A stretch of 64,000 nt of DNA from Myxococcaceae bacterium (GTDB taxonomy: Bacteria > Myxococcota > Myxococcia > Myxococcales > Myxococcaceae), in the NCBI GenBank assembly GCA_035637895.1, contig DASRBA010000259.1, positions 6,714 through 70,713 of the forward strand, given 5' to 3'. Below the pieces are notes generated by a model. It saw only the letters and a list, made by a program, of their open reading frames with translations, had not been told where the DNA came from and ran no database searches. Every line of letters begins with the position of its first letter. Position 1 is the first letter of the stretch. This document shows, piece after piece, positions 18,216 through 31,733 of the stretch. The translations under genes were made by a program, and so were the position numbers.

Positions 18216-18327
18216 GGGAATGATCCGCACTGTGTTCAAGGAGTTGCTATTCAGTGGGGCTGAATAGTCGAACGGGTCGGCACGAGTCCCTTCTCGCGGA
18301 CAATGGTCCTTTCTTTACGGAGAAGAA

Positions 18328-19227
18328 GTGAGAAAGGTCTATCGCAACTCAAGTTACTCCATCTACCTTGATGACTGCTTGGAGTGGTTGCCCCGCCAAA
18401 AGGCGAACACGTTCCATGCCGTAGTCACAGATCCTCCATTTAGCACGCTTGAGTACAGTGCAAAGGAATTGCGGAAACGTCGCCGAGGACCCGGAGGTGT
18501 ATGGCGACTTCCACAAGCATCAGATGGCGCAATCCGACAGCCCGTTCCAAGATTCACGATCCTGAGTGGACATGACCACATCGGGGTGCTGGCGTTCCAC
18601 TTGCGCTTAGCGCCAGAGCTTCACCGCGTGTTGGTGCCTGGCGCGCATGTCTTCATTGCGAGCCATCCCCTCCTGTCACATCTGGTCGCACAGGCGTTCG
18701 GCATGGCTGGATTCGAGACGCGTGGTCAGATTATCAGGATCGTCAAGACGCTGAGAGGAGGGGATCGGCCGAAGCCCGACGACAAAGACTACAGAGGTTT
18801 GTCAGTCATCCCAAAATCGTGCTTCGAGCCTTGGCTTCTCTTCAGAAAGCCATGCAAGGGACGCGTTGTAGACAACTTAAGGCGCTATGGAGTTGGAGCC
18901 CTTAAAAGGCCGAGCGAGAAGGAGCCCTTCGCGGATTTGCTCAGTGTCTCTCAGACAAGAGCTTCTGAGCGACAACTAGGGGATCACCCTTCCTTGAAGC
19001 CCCAAGAATTGATGCGAAAGCTCGTACGAGCAGCTTTACCACTTGGGCAGGGAACAATCCTCGACCCCTTCATGGGCGCGGGCTCGACCATTGCGGCAGC
19101 GACGAACTTGGGGCTGCGGAGTGTGGGGGTTGAAAGCGACAAGACTTACTACCGATTGGCCAAAAGAGCGATTCCGAAGCTAGCGTGGTTCGAGGTGCCA
19201 GAAAGACCAACGGCGACAGTTGACTAA
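18328..19227 (+). CDS. DNA methyltransferase, beta-class N6-adenine/N4-cytosine type (motif IV DPPF before motif I FxGxGS)
   Basis: GTG start preceded by GGAGAAG. AVVTDPPFS at residue about 33 and DPFMGAGSTIAAA near the C-terminus. GC is markedly lower than the surrounding genome. Confidence 0.88.
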   Translation: MRKVYRNSSYSIYLDDCLEWLPRQKANTFHAVVTDPPFSTLEYSAKELRKRRRGPGGVWRLPQASDGAIRQPVPRFTILSGHDHIGVLAFHLRLAPELHRVLVPGAHVFIASHPLLSHLVAQAFGMAGFETRGQIIRIVKTLRGGDRPKPDDKDYRGLSVIPKSCFEPWLLFRKPCKGRVVDNLRRYGVGALKRPSEKEPFADLLSVSQTRASERQLGDHPSLKPQELMRKLVRAALPLGQGTILDPFMGAGSTIAAATNLGLRSVGVESDKTYYRLAKRAIPKLAWFEVPERPTATVD

Positions 19228-19880
19228 ATGCGTTTGGGGCTAAGCAGGTCCATTTGCTCTGCTGATGCTTTGGGGGCTTCTTGCAAATACACCCAGTTCT
19301 TCCGTAATTTCGCGATGCCCTTTCGGTCGAGAGTAGCCGTTCGGGTACCCAATTCACCTCGTGAATTGCGCCGAAAGTCAGCCCTGGTGACCTGAGCCAA
19401 GTATATCTCGGTAAACGTCATCGGCTTGCGATCCACGGCGGGCTCGGTCTCCCGGTCGATGCTGTACACAAACACGCACATCCACTGGTCGCGCGCTCCG
19501 TGGGTGTCGACCGCACCTCCCATCTTCCTAGTGGTCTTGATTTTCAAGCCCTGGGCGCCAGCCTTCACGCTGTTGCGCGGATACACGCCTTGCACCACTA
19601 GGTCTGGGTGGCCATTGAAGTACTTATTTTGGACCAGTGTTCGAGAATGCTTCGCCAGGCTCGCTGCCAGCATGTCTGATAGCAGTCCGGACATAATTGC
19701 GGGGCGAAGTGTGTCGTCCAGGCGGTGAAGACCCTTGCGGGTGAGAAGGAGGTTAACGTCAGAAAAGAAGTCGTACACGTCCTGAAGAGCCAGCTCAAAA
19801 TCCTTCAGGCGAAGTTCATATGGAAGCGCTCTGCCGGTGTTGAAGCTGGATGGGTTCGGGGTGTTCTTAGTGATTGGCAT
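19224..19880 (-). CDS. Hypothetical protein, candidate restriction endonuclease cognate to the adjacent methyltransferase (assignment by position only)
   Basis: 218-aa ORF convergent with the MTase and overlapping it by 4 bp at the stops. Low GC like the MTase. No recognisable family motif. Confidence 0.55.
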   Translation of the reverse strand: MPITKNTPNPSSFNTGRALPYELRLKDFELALQDVYDFFSDVNLLLTRKGLHRLDDTLRPAIMSGLLSDMLAASLAKHSRTLVQNKYFNGHPDLVVQGVYPRNSVKAGAQGLKIKTTRKMGGAVDTHGARDQWMCVFVYSIDRETEPAVDRKPMTFTEIYLAQVTRADFRRNSRGELGTRTATLDRKGIAKLRKNWVYLQEAPKASAEQMDLLSPKRI

Positions 19881-20051
19881 ATTCGAGGGAGCCTATTCTG
19901 CTGGACCTCCGATTCTGGCATAACTTGGCTCCTTGGAGAACCCAGGTCTTTAGCTGTTGTCTCCGTTGCGGATGCGGCCAAGCGCGAAAGACGGTGCAAA
20001 GTCGTGGGAATTCAAGAGTCTGTGTCGAAAGTTCGCGGATTCCTCGAAAGC

Positions 20052-21296
20052 ATGTATCCGGGCACGAAGCCCTTTGCGCGAGTGCGTGCTGTCCTCGAGC
20101 GAGTCGCAACGTGGCCGGGAGGGCCCGTGGCGATCGTTCTTCAGGGGCCACCGGGCGTAGGAAAGACGACCGCCGCGCGCGCCCTCGCCGTCGCCCGCGC
20201 TATCGCCACTGTTGACCCCGAGGTGCTCAATCTGGGGGAGGATCGAGCTGCGAAGATGGTGTTGCGGGACATCGAGATCGGTTGGTACCGCTCCATTTCC
20301 CTGCCCGGCCTGACCCCGTCATTAGCCGACAGCCAACTCTTTGGCCTAAAACCCAAGGGCGCAACGGACGTAGCTCCGCGGATTGGGCTGTTCGAGCAGA
20401 CCATGACCGGCGCTCGGGCCGGTTCCGGTGAATCGCACCAAGCCCTCATCCAGGAGGCACAAAAGGAGCGGCGCCGTATCAATCTCGTCACTGGAGGAGT
20501 CGTCCTCCTCGACGAGATCGGCGATGCACCTGAATGGGTGCAATTGAAGCTGCTTCGTCTGCTCAACGGGGAGCGAGTGGCACGTGTGCAAGGGGAAGGA
20601 GATCCTGATTACGAATTCTGTTTTCGCGGCATCATCGTGCTTGCTACCTGGCGGGAGCTTGACGGGAACAATGGGCTGCGGCCGGACTTCAAGCAAAGAA
20701 TCATAAGCAATCGTCTTCGGATGCCCAGTCTCTCAGAGTATCCAATTGAGGCTCGGCAGCGACTCGTTGTCTCAGTCGTCGAGGGCTCCAAAACAGCTCG
20801 AAGCGAAGCCCTGGCAGAGTTGGAAGGACTGTTCAGTGGGGCGGATGACCCGATCGCAAGCTCCTACCGCCTCGCGCTAAGCAAATCGAGGACGCTGACG
20901 ACCGCGGAGGTCACTGAGATCGCGAGTCAGGACTGGAGCCAACTGAGTGAGTTGCGCGGGCTCCGGGCCATTGTGCAGAAGGTCTATGACGGGTCCTCGG
21001 TCAAGGAGGCAGTCGCTGAGATTACCGATGAACTCCAAGCGCCGCAGGAAGGTGCTGTCCAAGAAGAGGCCGATCTAGCCCGATTCAAGCGGTATCTCTC
21101 CATGCCCGTGCCGCTCGCCACCGCGTTGCGGCAAGACAGCGTCGAGTGGGCAGGCAGGGTCAATAAACAACTGACCGAGCGCACCCACCGCTTCGATGAA
21201 GCCATCAGGAGCAGCGGGAGGAAGCGCGCTCAGGTCAAGAAGGACCTCGAAAACCTCCGACGCTCAAAAGCGAGTGGTCGACGCACTCCCAAGTGA
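20052..21296 (+). CDS. AAA+ ATPase, sigma54-activator-like core without GAFTGA loop or obvious HTH. Start uncertain (ATG 20052, or GTG 20004)
   Basis: Walker A IVLQGPPGVGKTT; Walker B VVLLDEIGDAPEWVQLKLLRLLNGERVARV...IIVLATWREL...DFKQRIISNRLRMPSLSEYP follows the bEBP AAA+ pattern. The track ORF start at 19725 overlaps the convergent gene, so the start was trimmed. Confidence 0.75.
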   Translation: MYPGTKPFARVRAVLERVATWPGGPVAIVLQGPPGVGKTTAARALAVARAIATVDPEVLNLGEDRAAKMVLRDIEIGWYRSISLPGLTPSLADSQLFGLKPKGATDVAPRIGLFEQTMTGARAGSGESHQALIQEAQKERRRINLVTGGVVLLDEIGDAPEWVQLKLLRLLNGERVARVQGEGDPDYEFCFRGIIVLATWRELDGNNGLRPDFKQRIISNRLRMPSLSEYPIEARQRLVVSVVEGSKTARSEALAELEGLFSGADDPIASSYRLALSKSRTLTTAEVTEIASQDWSQLSELRGLRAIVQKVYDGSSVKEAVAEITDELQAPQEGAVQEEADLARFKRYLSMPVPLATALRQDSVEWAGRVNKQLTERTHRFDEAIRSSGRKRAQVKKDLENLRRSKASGRRTPK

Positions 21297-21393
21297 GTGG
21301 CCGAACATCCGAGGAGCTTCGCCAACCCAGTGGTTCTGGGGTCTTGCAGAGCCAGAATGGGAGGCCCGCTGGTTGCAATTCAGTGGTCGCGAG

Positions 21394-21849
21394 GTGGCGT
21401 GCGCGATGATCAAGGTCGACGATGGCGAGCTACTCAGCGACATCCTCAAATGGTCGGTTGCTGGATTTGGCACCGCCTTCGAGGTGGCGGTTCCCTCTTT
21501 CGAGCCCTCCGGGTTGTTCTCGCGGAGCATGATGCAGGCGGCCGCTCTCGGGACGCGGGTCCGATTCTTCACCCGCTGGCCGGAGGAGAAGGACAAGCAG
21601 GACGCCTTGGCCCAGTTGATGGCTCACGATGTGGCCGTGGTCATCGTCCCCCACCTTCAAGCCCAAGCGGCGCTGCTGACCGATGAGTCCACCGGCCTGT
21701 GGTACGGCTGGGTCGAAGGGGTCGCCTTCCTGGGCTGCGGCGACGCCGAGGCCGTGTTGCTTCGGGAACTGCTGGAGACGATCGAAGATTGGGAGAGGGC
21801 GGCTAGCCGCGAGGTGCGGCGGCGCGCCTTCCAGAGGCGGCTGAACTGA
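21394..21849 (+). CDS. Small hypothetical protein (start uncertain: TTG 21373, GTG 21394 or ATG 21406)
   Basis: ORF in the operon gap between the AAA+ gene (ends 21296) and the P-loop gene (starts 21882), with protein-like composition (WFWGLAEPEWEARWLQF...). The portion of the track ORF upstream of 21296 overlaps the preceding gene. Confidence 0.5.
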   Translation: MACAMIKVDDGELLSDILKWSVAGFGTAFEVAVPSFEPSGLFSRSMMQAAALGTRVRFFTRWPEEKDKQDALAQLMAHDVAVVIVPHLQAQAALLTDESTGLWYGWVEGVAFLGCGDAEAVLLRELLETIEDWERAASREVRRRAFQRRLN

Positions 21850-21881
21850 AGCTAGCGGGTGGAGGAGAAAGGACAACGTCG

Positions 21882-23036
21882 ATGCAGAAGCGGATGTCGG
21901 AGTGGTTCTTCCTGAAGGACGAGTTCAGTTCGTTCATCGTCGACGCGCAGAAGCATGCGCAGCACCTGTGTGGTGTCGAGGATCGCAAGCTGCGCGACGA
22001 CCTGGCCCTTTCTTTGAGGGAGTGTGCCTACTCGCAGCGGGGTCACCATGCGATCATTTGGGGCAACGCCGGTCGTGGAAAGACACATCTAGCCCACCAT
22101 CTGGTGGTCACCGCTGTCGACAACCAGGCCATCCTGCCCATCTACGTGGACTGTCCGCCGTTTCCGTCGGCTAAGGCACCGCTCCACATGTTCTTCGGGG
22201 CGCTCCTCAAGTCGATTCCCTGGAAGACAGTCAAGGACTTCGTGGGCAAATACCGCGCGAAGGCAGAAAACGACTCGACGCTTGAGAAGCGCGTCCAAGA
22301 TGTACTCCAAGCAGACACGAACATCTACGACGCGATGGTGGAGGGACTGGGGATGGGAAAGGAGTCCTCGATCCGGAGTACTCTGGGCTGGCTTGGGGGC
22401 GAGCCCGGTGGGAAGGTGAACGCCGCCCACGAGGCACCCGAGCAGTTCACGGACGAGGGGCAATTAGCTCGCAACATCGGCGCGTTGGGGGAGATGCTCC
22501 TCATCGCAGAGGGAAAGAACCTCATTTTCTTGGTGGACGAAGCAGAGCGCTTTCAGACGATTGCCAGCGGAGAGCGTTACTGGATCTGGCTCTCCGCGAT
22601 TCGCGAGCTCTTCCGCCGGCCAGCTGTGGGATTGATCCTCTTTATCATCGCTCGGAATCGCGACGATATTCCAAATATCCTCTGGGAGGACGAAATAAGC
22701 TCAGTTATCGGTGGCAACAATATTCATGAGTCGGCGAATTTCGCGCAGCCGAGCGCCGAGAGCTTCCTCAAGGATCTGCTAGACACAGTGGTCAAGCGCA
22801 GTCCGGCGCCCACCGAATTGCAGAAGATTGTGCAGGAGAAGGGCGAGTCTCTGGAGACGTATCCTTTCACAAAATCCGCCTTCGAAGAATTTATTGCCCA
22901 CCATTCAATAGGCACGCTGACGAATATTCCACGAGCCATTATCGGGAGCCTTGAGCACTGCGCTCGTCGCGCGATGACCCTTGACAAGAAGTTGATCGAC
23001 CATGACGTCCTACGCAGGGTGATCGAAGGGGTCTGA
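21882..23036 (+). CDS. P-loop NTPase (Walker A GNAGRGKT, Walker B IFLVDEAE), unknown family
   Basis: HAIIWGNAGRGKTHLAHHLV and LIFLVDEAERF. 384 aa. Confidence 0.8.
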   Translation: MQKRMSEWFFLKDEFSSFIVDAQKHAQHLCGVEDRKLRDDLALSLRECAYSQRGHHAIIWGNAGRGKTHLAHHLVVTAVDNQAILPIYVDCPPFPSAKAPLHMFFGALLKSIPWKTVKDFVGKYRAKAENDSTLEKRVQDVLQADTNIYDAMVEGLGMGKESSIRSTLGWLGGEPGGKVNAAHEAPEQFTDEGQLARNIGALGEMLLIAEGKNLIFLVDEAERFQTIASGERYWIWLSAIRELFRRPAVGLILFIIARNRDDIPNILWEDEISSVIGGNNIHESANFAQPSAESFLKDLLDTVVKRSPAPTELQKIVQEKGESLETYPFTKSAFEEFIAHHSIGTLTNIPRAIIGSLEHCARRAMTLDKKLIDHDVLRRVIEGV

Positions 23037-23052
23037 AGGGCAGGGGAAGATC

Positions 23053-24414
23053 ATGGCCAGGATTAGAGTGGAATGCGAGCCGCGCATCACCTGGGATCCC
23101 GTCGTCGGCGGTCCGGGTGAGCAGTACGTCCACCTTGGCGCGGTCATCGACAGCGGGCGCCGCCGGACGGTCAAGTTTGACGCCGATGGGAATTTCGTCG
23201 TCTTGGAGGTCGGAAAACGAGGGAGTGGGAAGTCATTCGGATTGGGTTCGATTATGGAGGCCTTCGCCGCCGCCGCTGACACGTGCACCATTGCCAAGCA
23301 GAGCCCGAACCGGCGGGGTGTCCTGCTCTTGGACCCGCTGGATGTGCATTGGACCGCCATCTACCCCGTCCGGAAGGATGGTTCGGTCCACATGCAGGAG
23401 CAATACAAACTCCTGGAGCGTTTTCCAGAGGTCGCGGTCGAACCCATCAATGTCGCAGTGTACATGCCCGCCGGACGAGGTCGACCCGAGGACCCTGCTG
23501 TCTTCCGGGCATACCACCTTCCTGTCTGCGACCTCACGTCGGAGGACTTCGCGTTGCTCTACGGCGCGAACCTGGTGAGTGACCCGGCAGGAATGCTGAT
23601 TGGGGAAATCCACGACAAGGTGAGCCGGTTGGGGTTCACCCGAGGCGCCACCGACGTTCCTGCCAAGGAGGTCTTTGGCCTCCAGGACCTCATCGATTGC
23701 TTGCAGGATACGGACATACAGGCCAACTACACAGTGCAGACTCTGCGAGCCGTCCGGCAGCGCCTGCTGTCCTGGCTTCGCGATCCGCTTTTCCAACAGC
23801 CCTCCGGGACCCCGGTGACGGAACTGGTCCAGCCGGGGCGAATGGGCATCTTATGCCTCAACCGCCTCTCGGAAGAGATGCGTAACGTGGTCACCGCCGT
23901 CATCGTCCGGCGGCTCAAGGCGGATCGGAGCCGGGCGAGCAACCTGGAGCGTGATCGCGCCTTCAATCCGCACCCCCTCAATAGACCTGCGGGGTTACCG
24001 CGGACGATCCTAGCCATCGACGAGGCCCAAATGATCCTGCCGGCGACGGGAAATAGCCACGCGCGGAGCGCAATCGAGTCCTATGTCCTCGAAGGTCGAA
24101 ACTTCGGGCTCTCGATCTGGATGGCTACCCAACGGCCGCGAGGGGCCATCTCGGAAAGAGCTAAGAGCCAGATCGACACGCTAATCGTCCACAAACTATC
24201 CACGGCGGAGGATCTGGAGGCCGTGGCGGGTCTCCTCCAGTCTGCGGAGCCCCTCAAAATTAAGGTCAACGAGTCGGTGGTCCCCCTAGCAGAATTGACG
24301 CGCAGCCTCGATGTGGGGATGGCCATCGTCTCCAGCGGGAACGGGAACGTCCATCGCGCCTTCGTGGTCGAGATGCGGCCACGGGTCGTCGCCCACGGTG
24401 GCCAGGCGTTCTGA
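23053..24414 (+). CDS. HerA/FtsK-superfamily (DUF87-like) ATPase
   Basis: Walker A VGKRGSGKSFG, Walker B ILAIDEAQ, and the characteristic IWMATQRP...DTLIVHKL (ATQRP / arginine-finger region) seen in HerA/VirB4-like translocases. Confidence 0.8.
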   Translation: MARIRVECEPRITWDPVVGGPGEQYVHLGAVIDSGRRRTVKFDADGNFVVLEVGKRGSGKSFGLGSIMEAFAAAADTCTIAKQSPNRRGVLLLDPLDVHWTAIYPVRKDGSVHMQEQYKLLERFPEVAVEPINVAVYMPAGRGRPEDPAVFRAYHLPVCDLTSEDFALLYGANLVSDPAGMLIGEIHDKVSRLGFTRGATDVPAKEVFGLQDLIDCLQDTDIQANYTVQTLRAVRQRLLSWLRDPLFQQPSGTPVTELVQPGRMGILCLNRLSEEMRNVVTAVIVRRLKADRSRASNLERDRAFNPHPLNRPAGLPRTILAIDEAQMILPATGNSHARSAIESYVLEGRNFGLSIWMATQRPRGAISERAKSQIDTLIVHKLSTAEDLEAVAGLLQSAEPLKIKVNESVVPLAELTRSLDVGMAIVSSGNGNVHRAFVVEMRPRVVAHGGQAF

Positions 24415-24426
24415 CGAGGACCGGCC

Positions 24427-25707
24427 ATGCTCATCCCCCGTTTCTGCAACTACTACACCGATTACCAGCAGCGCTTGGGCTTCCTGAAGGTCTTGGCGAG
24501 AACGGGCGAAGGTGTGCGCGGGGGCCACGATCAGTACGTCGCTCGGCTAGAAGAACTCTACAACACTCGCGGCGCACGCCGGGGAAATCGACGGGCTGTT
24601 TTCGATCCGGAAGCGTTGCTTCAGCGCACTGAGATCCCCTCTTGGCAGGTGGGCTTCTACAAGCCTTACCTCGGACGCCTGGTCAACTGGGGCGAGATGT
24701 GCGGAATCATCGCCGCCAACGGCCGCCTCTCTGAATGGGCGCGCATCCTACTCATCATTGGCAAGGAACAATCGGAAGAACGAAAAGAAAACCCATTCAT
24801 CCTCTCCGAAGTCGAACGGGCCTTCTTCCTCCAACTCTTGTTGGTCCACGACCAGGTGCTGCGGGACCTGATCGTCAGCTTGGGCCAGCGTGCCCCAGGA
24901 ACACGGCTTGGCGTGCTGGAGAGTTGCTTGGTCACGCTGGATGCCCTGGGCTCCTTCGCTGACGGTATTCAAGGGCCAGGTATTGAGGCGGTGCAACTGC
25001 GCGTTGAGTTGCGCAACCTCCTCGAGCGCATCGCCAGAAAGTGGAAATTCGACCGTACGGCGTTCATGTCGCCAGACCGCCGGGCGGAGGCGCTGGCTGC
25101 CGTTCGGGAGGAGGGTTCACGAAGGAAACCACGCAACCGGTTGCTGGAGATGAACGCCATCTGCCGCTTCGAACAGCTCACCGACCTAGGCTTGCTGGTC
25201 AAGGAGCCCGCGGGCCGACGAGACTTAACTGGTGAGCAACGGCGCGCCGTGCGGACGGGGTGGGACTGGGAGGTGGCTCCTGGCCTGAACGACATGGCCT
25301 ACCGGCTCGCCTCGAACGCGTCGATAACAGAGATCCTCACCCACCATTGGATCGAGGTGTCGACCTGTGGGATGGGACCGGCACCACTAAAGGAGCTCCA
25401 GAAGGCGGAACTGGTCGAGGTACTGGATCGCGTGTTGCCGATGGCGCGTCGGCAGCTGGGGCCGGTCCAGGTCCATACCTGGGCGACGCTCGCTTCGCTG
25501 GAGGCGCTGCGCGGCCATGGCCGGCTGGAGATTGGCCAGGTCCACGAACTATTGGACGCACTGCAGCGAGATCCTGGCGCTGGCGACGTCATCCGGCAGG
25601 GCGGACGGCCGGATTTCTTGGGGCGGACCGCAGTGGTCTCCAGGGGTGGCTTGTCCTCGCTTCTTAGCTCCCATGGATCCGAGCGGCGAGGAGGCGACCG
25701 TGTCTGA
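24427..25707 (+). CDS. Hypothetical protein (defence-operon component, no recognisable domain)
   Basis: 426-aa ORF starting 13 nt after the HerA-like stop, with protein-like composition. Confidence 0.7.
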   Translation: MLIPRFCNYYTDYQQRLGFLKVLARTGEGVRGGHDQYVARLEELYNTRGARRGNRRAVFDPEALLQRTEIPSWQVGFYKPYLGRLVNWGEMCGIIAANGRLSEWARILLIIGKEQSEERKENPFILSEVERAFFLQLLLVHDQVLRDLIVSLGQRAPGTRLGVLESCLVTLDALGSFADGIQGPGIEAVQLRVELRNLLERIARKWKFDRTAFMSPDRRAEALAAVREEGSRRKPRNRLLEMNAICRFEQLTDLGLLVKEPAGRRDLTGEQRRAVRTGWDWEVAPGLNDMAYRLASNASITEILTHHWIEVSTCGMGPAPLKELQKAELVEVLDRVLPMARRQLGPVQVHTWATLASLEALRGHGRLEIGQVHELLDALQRDPGAGDVIRQGGRPDFLGRTAVVSRGGLSSLLSSHGSERRGGDRV

Positions 25708-26488
25708 TGAGTTTCACACCGCATGGATGGCCAGAATGCAGCAGGCAGAAAGAACGGCAAAGGACGTCATCGACATCTGCTCGAAGCTCCCGGCGAACCC
25801 CTTTGAGGCCCGAGCGCGCCTCCACAGTACCGCCAGCAAGCTCGAAGCGTCAGGCTTGCGTCCGCTGGCTCCCCCGATGGACTTGGTGCGCCATGTTGAG
25901 GACGAATGCGTGCGGGCGCGGGCTGAGTTCTGGGACCAGATGGCCGAGGCCTGCCGCCGCAAGGAATGGCCGATCGACGGCTCCACAAACCGGCGCCTGG
26001 TGGGTCGAGGGCTGATAATTGAGCTAACCGACGACGAAGTGCGCATCGATGAGATTTCACTCCGCCTTTCTCCTCACGCAGCTTCGGTGGTGGAGGTAAT
26101 CGCTGGCGAGGTCAGCGCATTGGTGCCGACGGACTTCAACCCTGAAAGATATATGGCCTTGCTGGTAACGGCTTACGACGCGGCCCCGGGCGGAGTGGAG
26201 AAGCCGCTGGAGGCGGTCTACCGAGCTGCCGTCTTTGCTTCTCAGAAGTCGGCGTTCTGGAAGGGGCTCAACCCGGACCATTTCGTGCGGTTAACGCGTC
26301 CCGCGTTCCGGGCGCGACTGGCCCGCTTGCTTCATCTTGGCACACGGACCGCAGACGGGCGGGAGATCAGGTTTGGGAGCACTGTCGTCGCAAAGGACGC
26401 CTGGGAAGTCTATTCCCCTGGCGAGGAACGGCTAGTACAGGTCGGCCGTATCTCGTTGGGTTACGCAGGTAGCCAACATGAACATTGA
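25673..26488 (+). CDS. Hypothetical protein (start uncertain: ATG 25673 overlapping the upstream gene, or ATG 25727)
   Basis: ORF continuing the operon. Its 3' end overlaps the next gene's start by 11 nt. Confidence 0.65.
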   Translation: MDPSGEEATVSDEFHTAWMARMQQAERTAKDVIDICSKLPANPFEARARLHSTASKLEASGLRPLAPPMDLVRHVEDECVRARAEFWDQMAEACRRKEWPIDGSTNRRLVGRGLIIELTDDEVRIDEISLRLSPHAASVVEVIAGEVSALVPTDFNPERYMALLVTAYDAAPGGVEKPLEAVYRAAVFASQKSAFWKGLNPDHFVRLTRPAFRARLARLLHLGTRTADGREIRFGSTVVAKDAWEVYSPGEERLVQVGRISLGYAGSQHEH

Positions 26489-27785
26489 CCAAGTTGATGA
26501 GTCGGAAGCGCGGCGAATCCTCCGTTCACTGCGCTCAGGTGCCACGCCCACTCAGTACGCCAGTCAGATCTTCGTAGGGCAGGGACCCTGGTTCGATACC
26601 GCGCGGAAGATGATGCACGACACCGCAATAGATGAGGACTTTGAGGTGCGGTTCCTCCGAGCCGCCTACGGCGGCGGCAAGACACTGTTCCTCCGCTGCC
26701 TCGAGGAGGCGGCCCGGGCCGACGGATGGGTCACGGCTTACGTACTCCTCAAGCAGGGCTCTGTGGAGTTGGACAAGTTCGACACGTGGGTGCGAGAGGT
26801 GGCACGCACCGTTGAGTTTCCTGACGCAAGCCGAGGGATGAACACTCTGCTAGAGCGGGCGATGGCTACGCACCTGAAGTCCCACGGCTATGATCCTAGC
26901 CGTGCTACTTCCTTGAATGTCCTGGAGCGCGCCGGAGAGGGCCTCGCGAAATTCTGCCGCGGGAGGGCGCTCGAATACGATTTCTCCTTAGCCCTACGTG
27001 CGACCCTCGAGGCCCGCTTTGAGCGTGACGAAATTCGACTCCATGAGATTGCCAAGTGGCTGAGTGGAGGATCTGAGAGACTGGCGGTCGACCCCGCCCG
27101 TTTCGGTTCGAACCCGCACCGCCCGGCTACGCGAGCTGGAGCAGTCCAGCTGAAACAGCTAGGACCGGGGACGGCCGATCAGTTGCTCCGGCTCCTGGCT
27201 CTGCTGACGAAGATGAGCGGGCAAAAGGGCCTGATGCTTTCCTTCGATGAGGTCGAATTGATCGGCACGCTTCCGGAGAAGCGATTGAAAATTGCACTCC
27301 AGACGCTTCGGGAGTTGGTCGATCACACGGATCCGGCTCTGGAACCGCCCTCGACGTGCCTGTTCGTGGCCGCGACGCCAGAGATGTTCGAGAGCCCGAG
27401 GATGCTGCCCAGTTACAAAGCGCTCCAGGACCGAGTCGACAAGCTTCCCACCTCGCGGCGTGGTCCCCCTAATCTGCGCGGTACGGTGATTGACCTCGAC
27501 GCGACCGAGTTAGGCGAAGGCGACCTCGCGGCACTGGCAGAGCGCATCATGGCGCTGTACCGGAAGAGCGGGGAGGACGTGCCTCCCAACTTGGATGGGC
27601 AGCTAAAGGAGTTGGTCAAGACCATCACGGTACGTCGCTACAGCATCGCCCGGCCGCGACTCTTATGCCGGTGCCTGCTTGACATCTTAGACGGCAAGTT
27701 CGGGGCCGACATGCCCCAGGAGATCGCTGCCAGGAACGAGCAGATGACGAAGGAACGTCAGACAGAGATGAGGGTTAAGGCGTGA
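26478..27785 (+). CDS. P-loop ATPase, BrxD/DUF2791-like (family recalled, not searched)
   Basis: N-terminal EARRILRSLRSGATP box followed by Walker A AAYGGGKTLFL and Walker B LMLSFDEVE. 435 aa. Confidence 0.75.
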   Translation: MNIDQVDESEARRILRSLRSGATPTQYASQIFVGQGPWFDTARKMMHDTAIDEDFEVRFLRAAYGGGKTLFLRCLEEAARADGWVTAYVLLKQGSVELDKFDTWVREVARTVEFPDASRGMNTLLERAMATHLKSHGYDPSRATSLNVLERAGEGLAKFCRGRALEYDFSLALRATLEARFERDEIRLHEIAKWLSGGSERLAVDPARFGSNPHRPATRAGAVQLKQLGPGTADQLLRLLALLTKMSGQKGLMLSFDEVELIGTLPEKRLKIALQTLRELVDHTDPALEPPSTCLFVAATPEMFESPRMLPSYKALQDRVDKLPTSRRGPPNLRGTVIDLDATELGEGDLAALAERIMALYRKSGEDVPPNLDGQLKELVKTITVRRYSIARPRLLCRCLLDILDGKFGADMPQEIAARNEQMTKERQTEMRVKA

Positions 27786-28855
27786 GTAGCCGCGACTCCT
27801 CTGCCCGACGGATCGTCCGCGCGCTGCGAAGCGGCGTAGCCAGTCCAGAGTCAGTGGTTCGCATGAAGATCGGAAGCGAGGAGATCGAGGCCCAGTTTAA
27901 TGCCGCGTTCGACGCCTTCCTGCAGGGCGGTCAGACGCCCGGCCCGATACTTTTAGAAGGCGACTGGGGGTCGGGGAAAACACACATCAAAACGCTGCTG
28001 CGCCATGAAATGCGGCGCCGCCAGATTCCGCATGTAGCAACCGCTCTTGGCCGTTACCAAGGCTCTCTGGCCCACCTGCACTTGACTGTGCCACAGTGGC
28101 TCACAACGGTCGACTTCGGGGGCGCGCGTGGACTGCGCGCCGCCCTGGACGCTGGCATTCTGTCTCCGGGCGGCACCCACGCCTGGGCCAATACTAAGGT
28201 CACGCCCTTCGCGGAAGGCTTACGATGGGCGTTAGGGGGCTGGGACGAGGCTGGTTGGCTGCGTGCGCTCGGACATTGCTACGCCATGCCGAACCAAGGC
28301 TACCAGCACTGGAAGGCGCTCGACTTAGTATTGTCGGCCGGGGAGTACGTGGCGACGGTCGGTGGAAGGGGAATCGCCCTCCTTTTGGACGAGGCCGAAA
28401 ACGTCTGCTTACAGCACGACATCAGGGGACGGAGGCGTAGCTACGATGCGCTGCGCCGGCTGTATCTCAGTCAACACTTCCTATTAACCTTGTTCGTGAC
28501 GGCACGGTTTCTCGATCAGGTTCAACAGGACTGGAGGCAGGGCCTGGCCTCGGGCTGGGTCTACTGGACGGAGGAGGCTCGTGAATTCGTCTCGAATCTG
28601 CGCCACATGACGCGCTTGAAGACGCCGGCCCTGAGGCTGAGCGACGCCAAGGAGTTGGTGCGGCGCATTCATGCTGTCTACCAGGAAGCATACGGGCCCA
28701 TTTCGTTCGCTACCTCGGAGGCGGACATCCTCCGGGCGTGGACGCGGACCCCAACTCACTCCGTGCGACTGTTGATCCGCTTGACCGTCAGCGATCTGGA
28801 CGTTGCGGCCGGGGTAACATCGACACGGACTCTAAATGAAGAGTCGGTTGCCTAG
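27782..28855 (+). CDS. P-loop ATPase, paralog of the preceding BrxD/DUF2791-like gene
   Basis: Same N-terminal box SARRIVRALRSGVASP, Walker A GDWGSGKTHIK, Walker B IALLLDEAE. 4-nt overlap (ATGA) with the upstream paralog. Confidence 0.75.
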   Translation: MSSRDSSARRIVRALRSGVASPESVVRMKIGSEEIEAQFNAAFDAFLQGGQTPGPILLEGDWGSGKTHIKTLLRHEMRRRQIPHVATALGRYQGSLAHLHLTVPQWLTTVDFGGARGLRAALDAGILSPGGTHAWANTKVTPFAEGLRWALGGWDEAGWLRALGHCYAMPNQGYQHWKALDLVLSAGEYVATVGGRGIALLLDEAENVCLQHDIRGRRRSYDALRRLYLSQHFLLTLFVTARFLDQVQQDWRQGLASGWVYWTEEAREFVSNLRHMTRLKTPALRLSDAKELVRRIHAVYQEAYGPISFATSEADILRAWTRTPTHSVRLLIRLTVSDLDVAAGVTSTRTLNEESVA

Positions 28856-29146
28856 TGCTATCGCAGGGTGAATGCTCGGGACTCTACGGGAGATGCACTT
28901 CGATGACGAGCGCTCTCAAGCGAAGGGTGTTGGGATGATACCTGTTCGGGGGATGCTCCACGGCGGCAACGGGACGTTGAAACCCAGTTCGTCGAACAGC
29001 ACGTCACGGGCCACCCCCTGTAGGTTGGGAGGCCGGCACGGCGAGTCCCGCCACGATGGCCGTACCTCCGACTATCACCCCGGGCCGCGTTGCGTTCCAC
29101 GCAAGTGCCTGTAGCGCCAGATTCTCACCGTCGAAACCGATCTCGG

Positions 29147-30028
29147 TTATGCACCGAGCGTAGCAAGCAGCGGGATGGCACGGGTGGCGGTGTCGAAATG
29201 GGTGGCGTCCAGTTCAATGCCGATGCTGCGGTAGCCAACCGCGACGGCGGCGGCAATGGTGGAACCTGCGCCCATGAACGGGTCCAAGACAACGCCCTCA
29301 CCGAGCGGCAGCGCGGCGCGAACGAGCTGGCGCATGAGAGCCTGCGGCTTGAGCGACGGGTGGGGCGCGATGGCGCGCTCCTTCTTGTGGGTGGGCGAAG
29401 ACCGGATAACGTCGACGAAAGGTGCATCCTCCGAGATGCGGCGGAGGCCGCCAGTCTTCCACTTGCGGAGGTTGTCTTGGACGCGGCCTTCGCAGGGCTT
29501 GCGGAACAGGCCCCAGGGCTCCCAACAGGAGCGAGGCATCACGGTGACGTTGGCGAACTCCTCGTGTGCGTTTTTGGGACGGTCGCCACCGCGGAGGGTC
29601 TGCACGAGGCGGATGATCTCCCCACGCTTCTCGAAGCCAGCACCCGTTAGCGCTTGGTAAAGGACATGCGAAAGCAGTGGGTTCGTGGCGATAAACATGT
29701 GGGCGCCGGGAACGAGCACGCGGTAGGCGCGCACAGCGAAGTCTGCGAAGAATCGTCCCAGTGCCTCAAGGTCATCGACCGTAAGCACGGTGAAGCGCGG
29801 CAGGGGACTTCGCCTGGAGCCGTCGAATGACGGAGGAATCCGCCAGACGCCGCCGCGGTCTCGCCGGAGCTTCTCCTGCTCCCGCGCAGAGTACTCCTTC
29901 AGACCATACGGTGGGTCAGTGACAATTGCGTGGATGGAGTCGGGTGGTTGCGCGTCCATCCACCCCAAACAGTCTCCTTGGTGGATGGTGTGGCTGGCAT
30001 CGAACGCTAGCGCGGCCAGAGCGGTCAT
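29147..30028 (-). CDS. DNA methyltransferase, beta-class N6A/N4C type, paralog of the 18328..19227 MTase and in inverted orientation
   Basis: AIVTDPPYGL (motif IV) and DPFMGAGSTIAAA (motif I). Collinear with MTase-1 along the whole length at about 55% identity by eye (RDRGGVWRIP, LPRFT, RVLVPGAHMFIA, NPLLSH, LRGGDRPK, HPSLKPQ, LVRAALPLG). Confidence 0.88.
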   Translation of the reverse strand: MTALAALAFDASHTIHQGDCLGWMDAQPPDSIHAIVTDPPYGLKEYSAREQEKLRRDRGGVWRIPPSFDGSRRSPLPRFTVLTVDDLEALGRFFADFAVRAYRVLVPGAHMFIATNPLLSHVLYQALTGAGFEKRGEIIRLVQTLRGGDRPKNAHEEFANVTVMPRSCWEPWGLFRKPCEGRVQDNLRKWKTGGLRRISEDAPFVDVIRSSPTHKKERAIAPHPSLKPQALMRQLVRAALPLGEGVVLDPFMGAGSTIAAAVAVGYRSIGIELDATHFDTATRAIPLLATLGA

Positions 30029-30064
30029 CGCGCCGATCTTGCCAGTGTTTATGATACCTCAAAT

Positions 30065-30526
30065 TTAATTTCCGTAGTGACCTTCCTCAAAGTCCCAGAT
30101 TCCCCCTTGCTCGCCCTGTTCCAGGACCGAGTAGACGGCATGGACGTCGGCCTGCGGGGGGACATCGACCGCCCGGAGACATCCAGATCCCTGCTCAAAA
30201 GTGCATCCTAGCTCCGACAGCCGCGCCCACCACTCCCCGACTCGGCCGGCTTCGGCATCGTTGTTGAGCATGACGCGGTAGGTGGAGTGGCCGCCGCGGA
30301 TCGACACACTTTCGAACTCGAACAGCCCGTCCGCAGGGTGCGCAAAGACGACGTCTTCTGCGCTCACCCCGAAGGCGTAGAACGGCACGTTGCGAAGTCG
30401 CAGTCGGCGCTCGTCGATGCGTTCCGCCCAGAGTGTCTCGGTCGCTGAGCCATGCCATGCCCCCGGCTCCAACTGGAACCGCACCTTCACGAGATCGCCT
30501 TCGGCACGGTGGTGATCGGCCGTCAT
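30065..30526 (-). CDS. Candidate immunity protein for the upstream HNH toxin (DUF4265-like, recalled)
   Basis: 153-aa ORF whose start overlaps the toxin's stop by 4 nt. Acidic, Trp-containing composition (ETLWAERIDERRLRLRNVPFYAFG). Confidence 0.55.
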   Translation of the reverse strand: MTADHHRAEGDLVKVRFQLEPGAWHGSATETLWAERIDERRLRLRNVPFYAFGVSAEDVVFAHPADGLFEFESVSIRGGHSTYRVMLNNDAEAGRVGEWWARLSELGCTFEQGSGCLRAVDVPPQADVHAVYSVLEQGEQGGIWDFEEGHYGN

Positions 30527-31692
30527 TTGGCACCTTGGAGGTGCTCTTCCGTGGTCTTTGCGCCCTTCTCCAAATTACAAGTCCGACAGGTGTTCTGAGC
30601 GTTGTCGATCGTGTTGTTTCCTCCCCGCGACTTGGGCTGAGCGTGGTCCGTGTTCCGTTGGCTCGGTCCTGGTTCGTCGGTGGTCTCCTTGCCACAGAAC
30701 ACGCATTTCCCATCCGCGTGGGACTCAGCAGCGTCCTTGGTCTGTGGAGAGAATCTCTTGCCCGCTCCGGGTCCGCCGGACGCTCCCGCCTTGGGACCAG
30801 CGGACATGGCCACCGCGCCGCCGAGGTCGATGACCACGCTCCCATTCGCCGCGAGCGTGAGGGAGCGGGTGCCTTCAATTTCGGGAATCCGGAAGCCTTG
30901 TGCCTCCGCCAGCGCGGCAGCTCTCGAGCCTCCGGGGAGGTCGAGGGCGCTTCCCTTGAACAGCCCCGCGAACTTGGCGACGCCATACGTGGCGACCATC
31001 ACCACGATGCGCCCCACCGTTGGGCCCATGCGCTGTCCGTAGTGGATGCCGGCCACTCGGACGCCCGCGAAGTCCCGAGCGAGCTTCAGTTCGTCCAGCA
31101 TGGAGATGAAGCCCTTCACCACATTGTTGAAGACGTCCACCCCCACGAAGGCGATCAGGTTGCTCATCGAGACCATGAACAGAATCTTCGTGACCGGCTC
31201 AGGAGAGAGCAGTTCCACGATCATCCCCAGGAACAGCACGCTCAACATCGCGCGCACCTGGTCAGCGGTCATGGAACGGACCGCGGAGGCCGCATCCTCC
31301 AGTGCCTCAGCGAACGCGAAGTGCAGGGCTACGAAGGTGGCGCCTTCGTCATCCAACTCGCCTGAGGCGTTCAGGTCGTCCCAGCAATCGAACCGCTTGC
31401 CGGTGATGTGGTGGCACCACCGGAGGTACCCCTCGGCCTTGAGCCGCTGCATCGGGTCATCGCCAGCGAGGATGAACCGCGGTCTTCCGTTCTTCGGCAG
31501 ACCAGGAAGCGGGCCGTTGGCGTACAGCATCCGCATCCCTTGCTGGAGCTCCTCGCGGCTGAGGTCCACGGGCTTGTATCCGCCCGGACGGATGACCAGC
31601 ACCGACGGCGCAGAGACACGGCGTTGCTGGACCGGCAGCCCAGGAATGGCCGTCGAGCAAGCGCACAGGAAGGTGACCACCCACACAGCCAT
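30523..31692 (-). CDS. Lipoprotein polymorphic-toxin-like protein with C-terminal HNH nuclease domain
   Basis: Start trimmed to the ATG at 31692, giving MAVWVVTFLCACSTA (lipoprotein signal). The C-terminus CVFCGKET...DHAQPKSRGGNNTIDNAQNTCRTCNLEKG is a classic HNH (C..C...DH..P.S.GG.N..N....C..CN..K). Confidence 0.72.
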   Translation of the reverse strand: MAVWVVTFLCACSTAIPGLPVQQRRVSAPSVLVIRPGGYKPVDLSREELQQGMRMLYANGPLPGLPKNGRPRFILAGDDPMQRLKAEGYLRWCHHITGKRFDCWDDLNASGELDDEGATFVALHFAFAEALEDAASAVRSMTADQVRAMLSVLFLGMIVELLSPEPVTKILFMVSMSNLIAFVGVDVFNNVVKGFISMLDELKLARDFAGVRVAGIHYGQRMGPTVGRIVVMVATYGVAKFAGLFKGSALDLPGGSRAAALAEAQGFRIPEIEGTRSLTLAANGSVVIDLGGAVAMSAGPKAGASGGPGAGKRFSPQTKDAAESHADGKCVFCGKETTDEPGPSQRNTDHAQPKSRGGNNTIDNAQNTCRTCNLEKGAKTTEEHLQGAK

Positions 31693-31733
31693 GGTCTTCG
31701 GCCAGCCGAGCATGCCGGCATTATGGTCTACGC

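What the first reader, a model, noticed from the sequence alone, without database searches (positions are those of the whole stretch)
18328..30028. Two paralogous beta-class DNA methyltransferases in inverted orientation flank the ATPase operon
MTase-1 (18328..19227, +) and MTase-2 (29147..30028, -) are collinear at about 55% amino-acid identity with identical motif order (DPPF versus DPPY, then DPFMGAGSTIAAA in both). Their DNA composition differs (about 52% versus about 62% GC), so they are not a recent duplication. MTase-1 is paired with a convergent candidate REase. MTase-2 is convergent with the end of the ATPase operon and may be its modification component. Two diverged paralogs could give distinct target specificities protecting the host from two different restriction-like modules.
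Basis: seen in the sequence. Interest (0 to 1): 0.7.

Follow-up and report, generated by a model that had tools for sequence, protein, structure and literature searches.

The report
Two separately acquired methylases beside defence operon
Two related DNA-methylase genes do flank a multi-ATPase operon in this myxobacterial genome, but they are old, separately inherited members of one very common methylase family, and neither is a conserved part of the operon, so this is an ordinary mosaic defence island in which two nucleases look broken.

Summary
MT1 (18328-19227,+) and MT2 (29147-30028,-) are PF01555 beta-class methylases, 56% identical over 280 residues with no gaps.

They are not a local duplication: third codon positions are 32% identical, and MT2 has thousands of closer relatives in other phyla.

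MT2 is a lone methylase. Two related genomes carry its ortholog at the same site next to the aldehyde dehydrogenase gene, under purifying selection, with no operon, MT1 or restriction enzyme nearby. The 8-gene ATPase operon recurs in about 17 loci across many phyla, and none has this methylase family beside it.

MT1 and the convergent 218-aa gene form a widespread mobile type II restriction-modification cassette, also found on Klebsiella Col440I plasmids and viral contigs. The window's enzyme has Lys in place of the catalytic Glu (PD...ExK; 118 of 120 homologs keep Glu). MT1 also belongs to a different methylase clade from the usual partners of this enzyme, which resemble MT2 more. The operon's PLD nuclease has lost its HKD motif.

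Target sequences remain unknown. Similarity runs through the target-recognition region, so distinct specificities are not indicated.

The parts
18328..19227 (+). MT1: beta-class PF01555 DNA methylase, 299 aa, motif IV DPPF, probably N6-adenine. It is the methylase of the convergent restriction-modification cassette, but belongs to a clade other than the usual partner clade.
   Evidence: Pfam and PADLOC. It is 48-54% identical to the methylases of 11 other RE218-type pairs, and 72% to L096_MT. It keeps 88 of 99 family-invariant columns. GC 55.6%, GC3 60%.
19224..19880 (-). RE218: PD-(D/E)XK type II restriction endonuclease homolog, 218 aa. The motif is HPD(92-93)...G-L-K113-I-K115. The K113 codon AAA lies at 19542-19544, where the family has Glu.
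20022..21296 (+). Operon gene A: AAA+ ATPase of the sigma-54-activator / AAA_5 type. The start is probably GTG at 20022.
   Evidence: Pfam and PADLOC. The N-terminus matches the L088 homolog. Conserved in related loci.
21406..21849 (+). Operon gene B: degenerate PLD-family (HKD) nuclease. LHAK has become LQAQ, and a 14-aa deletion removes GSHN.
   Evidence: Homologs hit PF13091 PLDc_2. Alignment. The window copy has no Pfam hit.
21882..23036 (+). Operon gene C: ORC/Cdc6-like AAA ATPase (AAA_16/AAA_22). It forms a conserved pair with gene D.
   Evidence: The C-D pair is kept even in distant loci L027-L045.
23053..24414 (+). Operon gene D: HerA/FtsK-like ATPase, with a PADLOC mad8-like hit.
   Evidence: PADLOC mad8 4.8e-16 and HerA models. 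NCBIfam HerA_antiphage partial match. 324 homologs. 235 genome stretches encode a relative.
24427..25707 (+). Operon gene E: conserved, function unknown.
   Evidence: No Pfam, PADLOC or PDB hit. Conserved in related loci.
25673..26488 (+). Operon gene F: conserved, function unknown.
   Evidence: No significant hit. Conserved in related loci.
26478..27785 (+). Operon gene G: BrxD-family ATPase (PF10923).
   Evidence: Pfam 6.2e-34, PADLOC BrxD 1.8e-31, NCBIfam BREX_BrxD below its cut-off.
27863..28855 (+). Operon gene H: second, diverged BrxD/KAP-like P-loop protein.
29147..30028 (-). MT2: lone beta-class PF01555 methylase, 293 aa, motif IV DPPY. It has orthologs at the same locus in related genomes. 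The window allele is AT-shifted at synonymous sites.
   Evidence: No restriction-enzyme remnant lies downstream.
18217..29075 (.). Segment absent from related genome L090, carrying MT1, RE218 and operon A-H. Relative to L099 the equivalent insertion is 18219-29162.
   Evidence: blastn of L090 and L099 against the window.
30065..31746 (-). DUF4265 immunity-like gene (30065-30526) and a lipoprotein-like protein with a C-terminal HNH nuclease (30523-31746). This is a strain-variable toxin/immunity cassette on the other side of MT2, absent from L090 and L099.
   Evidence: Pfam; blastn.

Best explanation
MT1 and MT2 are two anciently diverged members of one very large, horizontally mobile family of about 300-aa beta-class (PF01555) type II DNA methylases. 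They probably make N6-methyladenine. They reached this spot by different routes and serve different units.

MT2 is a lone ('orphan') methylase. The lineage keeps one at the aldehyde dehydrogenase/GH3 site under purifying selection, without any restriction enzyme. It would methylate its target site on the chromosome on its own.

MT1 and the convergent 218-aa PD-ExK enzyme form a compact two-gene type II restriction-modification cassette of a widespread mobile kind. In this copy the enzyme's catalytic Glu is Lys, so cleavage is probably lost. MT1 also comes from a methylase clade other than the one that normally accompanies this enzyme family.

The eight-gene ATPase operon between them is a third, independently mobile module. 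It is a predicted defence system of the HerA/FtsK plus ORC/Cdc6-type kind, with two BrxD-like ATPases and, in intact copies, a small PLD nuclease. It needs neither methylase, and its PLD gene is degenerate here.

Shown: the homologies, the gene contexts, the empty-site genomes, the substitutions and the selection statistics. Inferred: the methylated base, loss of nuclease activity, and the order of acquisition events.
For: (1) Ancient divergence. Protein identity is 56%, DNA identity 55.6%, third positions 32.5%. MT2 has 8000 or more relatives, at 73-91% identity, in Terriglobales, Nitrospira, Myxococcales and other groups, all closer than MT1. In a neighbour-joining tree MT1 groups only with L096_MT, at 72% identity.

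(2) MT2 is independent of the operon. L090 has the order Aldedh | MT2 ortholog | 322-aa gene | kinase. L099 has Aldedh | MT2 ortholog | GH3. Their flanks are about 90-93% identical to the window at the DNA level, and neither carries MT1, RE218 or the operon. MT2 orthologs have dN/dS of 0.09-0.22.

(3) The usual partner is missing. MT2-clade methylases in three phyla are followed, in the same direction, by a conserved protein of about 200 aa carrying an HPD...ESK motif. No trace of it lies next to MT2.

(4) The operon is independent of these methylases. The A-H genes are collinear in about 17 loci from Acidobacteriota, Planctomycetota, Myxococcota, Alpha- and Betaproteobacteria, Gemmatimonadota and others. 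The only MT1/MT2 hit is a weak one in L024, 4.4 kb away. In the window's own clade (L009, L010, L012, L020, L022, L088/89, L097, L098) no methylase family appears among the neighbours, and two of these loci carry integrases.

(5) The cassette is real and mobile. RE218 has 8000 or more homologs and a restriction-enzyme fold. It lies convergent to a PF01555 methylase, overlapping or within about 40 bp (the window's own 4-bp overlap recurs in L093-95 and the Klebsiella/Raoultella plasmid), in 10 of 11 further pairs; in L109 the methylase lies about 400 bp downstream on the same strand. The pairs are two metagenomic loci, plasmids of Klebsiella (Col440I), Ralstonia, Gordonia and Rhizobium, and five IMG/VR contigs.

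(6) The restriction enzyme looks inactive. D93 and K115 are invariant. E113 is present in 118 of 120 top homologs and in all 11 paired copies, but is K (codon AAA) here. The identical protein is recorded from several sources.

(7) MT1 is not the usual partner type. Among the six pairs compared all-against-all, enzyme identity of 63-75% goes with methylase identity of 57-75%. The window pair shows 82% for the enzyme and 52% for the methylase. The partner methylases are 60-70% identical to MT2 but only 48-54% to MT1.

(8) The PLD gene has lost its HKD and GSxN motifs.
Against: The window's MT2 allele does not look like a simple vertical ortholog. Its GC3 is 76%, like the operon (68-84%), whereas the L090 and L099 orthologs have 96-98%. 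Its dS to those orthologs is 0.57-0.60, against 0.18-0.21 for the adjacent Aldedh gene. 59 of 84 synonymous third-position differences are A/T in the window and G/C in L090. This allele was therefore probably imported along with neighbouring island DNA, which leaves room for MT2 having travelled with the operon.

A JGI contig (the P0123 contig) carries a PF01555 methylase (clade unknown, no DNA held), an RE218 homolog and the operon. After gene H it has a minus-strand gene at the same spacing as MT2. Its identity could not be read because no DNA is held for that contig.

In a sister clade of the operon, a C5 methylase and/or Vsr gene lies next to it in 6 of 17 loci sampled. Some link between the operon and methylation is therefore not excluded.

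Loss of activity from E113K, and the placing of MT1 in a 'wrong' clade, are inferences from sequence. The tree is a simple neighbour-joining tree without support values.

A restriction enzyme for MT2 could lie outside the region examined.
Confidence: 0.6

Rival explanations
1. MT1 protects the host from the adjacent restriction enzyme. MT2 is the modification subunit of the ATPase operon, which would then act like BREX or MADS. The two methylases would have different target sequences.
For: MT2 lies next to and convergent with the operon. Its composition resembles the operon's. The operon contains BrxD-family ATPases and a mad8-like ATPase, both known from methylation-based defences. C5 methylase and Vsr genes often lie beside sister-clade operons.
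Against: MT2 orthologs persist under purifying selection at the same locus without the operon in L090 and L099. About 17 operon loci lack any PF01555 methylase, and the eight closest have no methylase family of any kind among their neighbours. The C5 methylases beside sister-clade operons are only 23-52% identical to each other, while HerA is 60-71% identical, so they are not co-evolving with the operon. No PglX or PglZ is present. Of the MADS mandatory set, only a mad8-like protein was detected.
Confidence: 0.07
2. One composite island. MT1, RE218, the operon, the MT2 allele and the toxin/immunity pair were imported together as a block of about 13.5 kb. The incoming MT2-like gene recombined with the resident MT2, giving homology-anchored allelic replacement. 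MT2 resembles the natural partner methylases of this enzyme family more than MT1 does, so it may methylate the same site as RE218's cognate methylases. That would make it a back-up or 'vaccine' against the cassette.
For: The whole stretch 18.2-31.7 kb has GC3 of 60-84%, against 95-98% in the host. The MT2 allele's dS is about three times that of the flanking gene, with an AT-ward bias. The JGI contig has a minus-strand gene at the MT2 position after H. Partner methylases of RE218-type enzymes are 60-70% identical to MT2, against 48-54% for MT1.
Against: No sharp recombination breakpoint is visible inside MT2, only a gradient. No repeats, tRNA or integrase mark the borders. L088/L089, whose HerA is 80% identical, carry the operon without either methylase. 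Relative to L099 the extra DNA comes as two separate insertions, one on each side of MT2. Shared specificity is untested.
Confidence: 0.22
3. Recent tandem or inverted duplication of one methylase gene within this genome, followed by divergence. That would make them true recent paralogs.
For: Same family, same length, gapless collinearity.
Against: Third-position identity is 32.5% and the longest identical run is 11 nt. Thousands of proteins in other phyla are closer to MT2 than MT1 is. MT1's nearest relative is on an unrelated 55%-GC metagenome contig. The two fall in different clades.
Confidence: 0.01

Closest known systems
Beta-class N6/N4 DNA methylases of type II restriction-modification systems (Pfam PF01555; PADLOC MTase_II model PDLC03215; solved relatives CcrM, M.RsrI, M.MboIIA, DpnA)
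   Same: Both MT1 and MT2 pass the Pfam cut-off. Both match PDLC03215 end to end. Both have motif IV DPP[YF] ahead of the AdoMet motif DPFMGAGST.
   Different: Only the C-terminal AdoMet region matches any solved structure by sequence. No characterised enzyme with a known target was identified. MT1 belongs to a small, separate sub-clade marked by DPPF, F91H, W166F and S207V.
Compact convergent type II restriction-modification cassettes on small mobilisable plasmids, such as the hypothetical-protein/methylase pair on Klebsiella pneumoniae Col440I plasmid pCol4401-L117 (NZ_CP040037.1)
   Same: Same restriction-enzyme family (66% identity). Same convergent arrangement with a 4-bp overlap to a PF01555 methylase.
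   Different: The window's enzyme has K where the others have the catalytic E. Its methylase is only 50% identical to the plasmid's, whereas the other pairs compared all-against-all share 57-75%. The cassette is chromosomal here and sits beside an ATPase operon.
Lone (orphan) DNA methylases such as Dam and CcrM
   Same: MT2 has no adjacent restriction enzyme. It is kept at one chromosomal site in three related genomes and is under purifying selection.
   Different: MT2 belongs to a clade whose members normally have a partner of about 200 aa. No regulatory role is shown. The allele in this genome appears to have been replaced horizontally.
Predicted HerA/FtsK plus Orc/Cdc6 'capture' defence systems (PMC10853773, sections 22 and 26; PMC12839542, section 36); also MADS (bioRxiv 10.1101/2023.03.30.534895) and the BREX protein BrxD
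   Same: The operon has an ORC/Cdc6-like ATPase directly followed by a HerA/FtsK-like ATPase, and this pair is kept across bacteria and archaea. It also has two BrxD-family ATPases, a mad8-like hit and, in intact relatives, a small PLD nuclease.
   Different: There is no PglZ, PglX or DUF4007. Of the MADS mandatory proteins mad6, mad7 and mad8, only a mad8-like protein is detected. No PADLOC system matches the set. No methylase is consistently linked. The eight-gene composition was not found described in the papers read.

Membership tests
Beta-class PF01555 DNA methylase (MT1 and MT2) | Pfam N6_N4_Mtase score above the gathering threshold | tested here: met
   74.0 and 67.2 bits against a cut-off of 26.7.
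Beta-class PF01555 DNA methylase (MT1 and MT2) | Circular permutation typical of the beta class: catalytic motif IV (D/S)PP(Y/F) lies N-terminal to AdoMet motif I (FxGxG) | tested here: met
   DPPF or DPPY at about residue 35-41; LDPFMGAGST at about residue 245-256.
Beta-class PF01555 DNA methylase (MT1 and MT2) | Methyl transfer to N6-adenine or N4-cytosine at a defined sequence | not testable with these tools
   DPPY/DPPF and automated source names suggest adenine. No methylome is available.
Type II restriction-modification system (MT1 + RE218) | Adjacent methylase and endonuclease genes, with the arrangement conserved in relatives | tested here: met
   The window pair overlaps by 4 bp. Of 11 other pairs, 10 are convergent and overlapping or within about 40 bp, several with the same 4-bp overlap; L109's methylase lies about 400 bp downstream on the same strand.
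Type II restriction-modification system (MT1 + RE218) | Endonuclease fold (PD-(D/E)XK) | tested here: met
Type II restriction-modification system (MT1 + RE218) | Intact catalytic residues D...(D/E)xK | tested here: not met
   D93 and K115 are present. E113 is replaced by K, while 118 of 120 homologs and all 11 paired copies have E.
Type II restriction-modification system (MT1 + RE218) | Methylase and endonuclease co-diverge as a cognate pair | tested here: not met
   Enzyme identity 82% against methylase identity 52% to L091. Among the six pairs compared all-against-all, 63-75% goes with 57-75%. MT1 clusters with L096_MT, which has no RE218 nearby.
Orphan (lone) methylase (MT2) | No cognate endonuclease gene adjacent, and none of the clade's usual partner | tested here: met
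   tblastn and HMM searches for the ~200-aa partner found nothing in the window. L090 and L099 lack it too.
Orphan (lone) methylase (MT2) | Kept at the same site in related genomes and under purifying selection | tested here: met
   Same locus in L090 and L099. dN/dS 0.09-0.22.
Methylation-based multi-gene defence (BREX or MADS-like) with MT2 or MT1 as its methylase | Methylase consistently encoded with the other components across genomes | tested here: not met
   About 17 operon loci have no PF01555 methylase. The closest eight have no methylase family at all among their neighbours.
Methylation-based multi-gene defence (BREX or MADS-like) with MT2 or MT1 as its methylase | Signature proteins: PglZ and PglX/BrxC for BREX; mad6, mad7 and mad8 for MADS | tested here: not met
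   Only BrxD-family and mad8-like hits were found. There were no PglZ, PglX, mad6 or mad7 hits.
HerA/FtsK plus Orc/Cdc6 capture-type defence system (the operon) | Orc/Cdc6-type AAA+ ATPase coupled to a HerA/FtsK ATPase, with a nuclease effector | tested here: inconclusive
   The C-D pair is conserved. A PLD nuclease is present in relatives but degenerate here. The inserted inactive-REase and wHTH features of the published class were not tested.
Recent paralogs by local duplication | Closest relatives of each other, with unsaturated synonymous sites | tested here: not met

The most novel reading that the evidence does not exclude
The lineage's resident lone methylase may work as a 'vaccine' and a landing pad. 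MT2-type methylases are 60-70% identical to the natural partners of RE218-type restriction enzymes, so MT2 may already protect the chromosome against this enzyme family. That would let a foreign island enter without lethal restriction. The island would carry the cassette, a methylase-independent HerA/ORC/BrxD multi-ATPase system and a homologous MT2 allele, and would integrate by recombination at the MT2 gene. Afterwards the cassette's own enzyme (E113K) and cognate methylase could decay or be swapped. A separate possibility is that the eight-gene operon is an undescribed defence system that pairs with interchangeable modification modules upstream of gene A: a C5 methylase with Vsr in one clade, MT1 with RE218 here.
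Probability: 0.12. Interest if true: 0.6.

Novelty: new member of a known kind. Interest (0 to 1): 0.3.

Why it matters
This case shows that two look-alike methylases bracketing an operon need not form one system. Here they reflect three mobile modules stacked at a variable chromosomal site.

It is useful as a caution for guilt-by-association annotation of defence islands. It is also a small, clear example of decay in such an island: a restriction enzyme with a point mutation in its catalytic Glu, a PLD nuclease that has lost its HKD motif, and a lone methylase that stays under selection.

The by-products deserve more follow-up than the methylase pair itself. The first is a widely distributed, uncharacterised eight-gene HerA/ORC/BrxD operon. 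The second is a very large, unannotated restriction-enzyme family that also occurs on Klebsiella Col440I plasmids.

Tried and rejected
- A profile search of the RE218 family against PDB sequences gave no hit, even at E = 10.
- Profile-profile comparison of the RE218 family with the ~200-aa partner family of MT2-clade methylases was not significant (probability 1.8%), although HPD...ExK aligns. Homology between the two enzyme families is therefore not claimed.
- HMM and tblastn searches for restriction-enzyme remnants downstream of MT2 and in L096 found none.
- I looked for island borders. There are no tRNA genes and no meaningful direct or inverted repeats. Promoter and terminator counts equal those of shuffled sequence.
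- A sliding-window comparison showed no mosaic origin for MT1. It is uniformly closest to L096_MT.
- The 50%-clustered representative search could not resolve sub-clades of MT1.
- The metagenome scan found one relative, L096. The viral scan with MT1 found none.
- I tried to identify the target sequence through the literature on Col440I plasmids and by accession search. Nothing was found.
- The afdb50 fold library was unavailable.
- MANTIS/Gao_RL and the BREX-related types were considered for the operon. The domain sets do not match.
- Operon genes E and F have no Pfam, PADLOC or PDB sequence match.
- The C5 methylase and Vsr genes near sister-clade operons were tested as possible co-evolving components. 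They are too divergent from one another.

Full report
Setting. The window has about 70-72% GC, and its host genes have GC3 of 95-98%. A stretch from about 18.2 to 31.7 kb has 55-65% GC and GC3 of 60-84%. Source names for the identical proteins point to a Myxococcaceae metagenome-assembled genome. The same sequence also occurs on an ENA contig (L001).

The genes in order:
- aldehyde dehydrogenase, ending at 18215 (+)
- MT1, 18328-19227 (+)
- a 218-aa gene, RE218, 19224-19880 (-)
- eight co-directional genes A-H, 20022-28855 (+)
- MT2, 29147-30028 (-)
- a DUF4265 gene, 30065-30526 (-)
- an HNH-ended lipoprotein-like gene, 30523-31746 (-)
- GH3, 31734-33401 (+)
- a protein kinase

Observation. 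MT1 and MT2 are 56% identical over 280 residues with no gaps, E = 5e-117. Shuffled controls reach 11% at most. Both are PF01555 proteins with the beta-class motif order, and both fit one PADLOC type II methylase model end to end. Similarity is not confined to the catalytic motifs. Every 30-residue block is 27-70% identical, including the region between motif VIII and motif X where beta-class enzymes carry their target-recognition domain. GC is 55.6% against 64.4%, not 52% against 62%.

Not a local duplication. Codon-aligned DNA identity is 55.6%, with 32.5% at third positions and a longest identical run of 11 nt. There is therefore no inverted repeat and no substrate for recombination between the two genes. 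MT2 has at least 8000 database relatives. The best are 73-91% identical and come from Terriglobales, Nitrospira, Myxococcales and other groups, all far closer than MT1. MT1 is 48-58% identical to everything sampled except one metagenome protein, L096_MT, at 72%. MT1 is not a decaying copy. It keeps 88 of 99 columns that are at least 97% conserved in 130 relatives, and six of its eleven departures are shared with L096_MT (Y38F, which gives DPPF, plus P63, F91H, F155Y, W166F and S207V).

MT2 is a lone methylase that does not depend on the operon. Two contigs from related organisms serve as 'empty sites'. L090 reads adh_short, Aldedh, MT2 ortholog (90% amino-acid identity), a 322-aa gene, kinase. 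Its flanks are about 89-90% identical to the window at the DNA level (93.5% within the Aldedh gene itself). The window's 18217-29075 (MT1, RE218 and the operon) is simply absent. L099 reads Aldedh, MT2 ortholog (91%), GH3. Relative to L099, the window has two insertions: 18219-29162, and 30040-31705 (the DUF4265 and HNH pair). MT2 orthologs evolve under purifying selection, with dN/dS of 0.09-0.22. In other phyla, MT2-clade methylases are followed in the same direction by a conserved protein of about 200 aa with an HPD...ESK motif, presumably their endonuclease (L002, L004-L008). No trace of that gene lies next to MT2 here or in L090 or L099.

One complication needs stating. The window's MT2 allele has GC3 of 76%, whereas the L090 and L099 orthologs have 96-98%. 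Of 84 synonymous third-position differences, 59 are A/T in the window and G/C in L090, and only 5 go the other way. Its dS to the orthologs is 0.57-0.60, against 0.18-0.21 for the neighbouring aldehyde dehydrogenase. Between L090 and L099, by contrast, the MT2 dS (0.146) equals the Aldedh dS (0.150). This allele is therefore not a plain vertical descendant. It was probably brought in with island DNA and replaced the resident allele. No sharp breakpoint is visible, only a gradient: the 3' half is more similar. This is the main evidence that keeps a 'composite island' rival alive.

The operon stands alone elsewhere. The HerA-like protein D has 324 detected homologs, and 235 stretches in the species-representative genomes encode a relative. 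Genes A-H, or most of them, are collinear in about 17 loci from Acidobacteriota, Planctomycetota, Archangium, Sphingomonadales, Burkholderiales, Gemmatimonadota, Thermodesulfobacteriota, Nitrospira and others. The C-D pair (ORC-like plus HerA-like ATPase) persists in much more distant loci. With 10-kb flanks, tblastn using MT1 or MT2 found only one weak hit, 4.4 kb away in L024. In the window's own clade (HerA identity 60-80%: L009, L010, L012, L020, L022, L088/89, L097, L098), neighbouring genes include integrases, an ArdC-like gene, DUF5131, SSB and KilA-N, but no DNA methylase family. Only one other contig repeats the methylase + RE218 + operon order, the JGI contig of P0123 with 78% HerA identity. 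Its last gene, on the minus strand after H, could not be read.

In a sister clade (HerA about 47% identical to the window's), a C5 methylase and/or a Vsr gene lies beside the operon in 6 of the 17 loci sampled. Those methylases are only 23-52% identical to one another, while HerA is 60-71% identical. This looks like defence-island neighbourhood, not co-evolution.

The operon best fits the predicted HerA/FtsK plus Orc/Cdc6 'capture' systems (PMC10853773, PMC12839542). It adds two BrxD-family ATPases and has a mad8-like hit. It matches no complete PADLOC system.

Two features set the window's copy apart.

First, the family motif is HPD(92-93)...G-V-E113-I-K115, a PD...ExK signature with D93 and K115 invariant. 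The window has K113 (codon AAA at 19542-19544). E is present in 118 of the 120 best homologs and in all eleven paired copies. From what is established about PD-(D/E)XK nucleases, replacing the metal-binding acidic residue with lysine should abolish cleavage. This is an inference and was not tested.

Second, the pairing is discordant. Among the six pairs compared all-against-all, enzyme identity of 63-75% goes with methylase identity of 57-75%. The window's enzyme is 82% identical to L091's, but MT1 is only 52% identical to L091's methylase. Across all eleven pairs, the partner methylases are 48-54% identical to MT1 and 60-70% identical to MT2. MT1 is uniformly L096-like along its length, so it is not a mosaic. 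In L096 the MT1-like gene follows a GmrSD_N/NsnA-like gene, and no RE218 is present. MT1 therefore seems to belong to a different methylase lineage from the one that normally accompanies this enzyme. Of the two window methylases, MT2 is the one that resembles the natural partners.

A second broken nuclease. Gene B homologs in L088, L098 and the JGI contig hit PLDc_2 and carry LHAKxxxL...GSHNxT. The window's copy reads LQAQ and lacks 14 residues that include GSHN. The other seven operon genes are full length relative to their homologs.

Most likely account. Three mobile units are stacked at a strain-variable site between the aldehyde dehydrogenase and GH3/kinase genes:
- a lone methylase that the lineage keeps;
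- a type II cassette with a probably dead endonuclease and a non-standard methylase;
- a methylase-independent multi-ATPase defence operon whose PLD gene is degenerate.

A toxin/immunity pair sits on the far side of MT2. Both methylases probably still methylate, given their intact motifs and, for MT2, the evidence of selection. Whether they share a target is unknown. Gapless similarity through the recognition region, and the 60-70% identity between MT2 and RE218-partner methylases, make the same or related targets at least as likely as distinct ones.

Verdict. The functional reading is only partly right. The feature is an ordinary, partly decayed defence-island mosaic built from known kinds of parts. 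The uncharacterised eight-gene operon and the very large unannotated endonuclease family are the more interesting by-products.

Noticed in passing
window 19542-19544 (within RE218, 19224-19880, -): The catalytic Glu of the PD...ExK motif is Lys (AAA) in this copy. 118 of the 120 best homologs and all 11 paired copies elsewhere have Glu. One other database protein, P0337, shows the same E-to-K change.
   Followed up: yes
window 21406-21849 (+): Operon gene B is a degenerate PLD/HKD nuclease. LHAK has become LQAQ, and a 14-aa in-frame deletion removes GSHN. The L010 homolog carries an in-frame stop. B is missing in L009 and L097, where gene A is inverted.
   Followed up: partly
window 20022-28855 (+); loci L009-L046, L088, L097, L098: The eight-gene operon comprises a sigma-54-type AAA+ protein, a PLD protein, an ORC-like ATPase, a HerA-like ATPase, two unknowns and two BrxD-like ATPases. 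It is collinear across many bacterial phyla. The ORC-like/HerA-like pair extends to distant bacteria and one archaeal locus (L032); only HerA-like relatives at about 25-29% identity were found in the other archaeal loci. It matches no PADLOC system and was not found described as such in the papers read.
   Followed up: partly
L015 1540-3322, L017 5623-6729, L018 5347-7253, L019 1500-3375, L025 16884-18591, L024 3278-3859: In a sister clade of the operon, a C5 cytosine methylase and/or a Vsr gene lies directly beside it. In three loci from different phyla the C5 methylase, followed by Vsr in two of them (L015, L018), lies just upstream of gene A and points away from it. These methylases are only 23-52% identical to one another.
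   Followed up: partly
window 29147-30028 compared with L090 8511-9392 and L099 878-1756: The window's MT2 allele has GC3 of 76%, against 96-98% in its orthologs. Its dS is about three times that of the flanking gene, with a strong AT-ward bias. This suggests horizontal replacement of the allele at a conserved locus.
   Followed up: yes
window 30065-31746 (-): A DUF4265 immunity-like gene lies next to a 407-aa protein with an N-terminal lipoprotein-like signal (FLCAC) and a C-terminal HNH nuclease. Both are absent from L090 and L099. The pair looks like a strain-variable polymorphic toxin/immunity cassette of the kind myxobacteria exchange. That resemblance is from memory and was not tested.
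   Followed up: no
L100 (NZ_CP040037.1, 2602-4322), L101, L102-L104, L105-L110: The RE218-type enzyme with its convergent methylase is annotated only as 'hypothetical protein' plus 'DNA methyltransferase'. It occurs on 4.9-kb Col440I plasmids of Klebsiella and Citrobacter, on plasmids of Ralstonia, Gordonia, Rhizobium and Mycobacterium, and on IMG/VR viral contigs. Its recognition sequence appears to be unreported.
   Followed up: partly
L096 998-2949: MT1's closest relative (72% identity) overlaps by 4 bp the end of a GmrSD_N/DUF262 gene that hits PADLOC NsnA (Menshen) at 3.5e-45. This suggests the MT1 clade can pair with a quite different nuclease.
   Followed up: no
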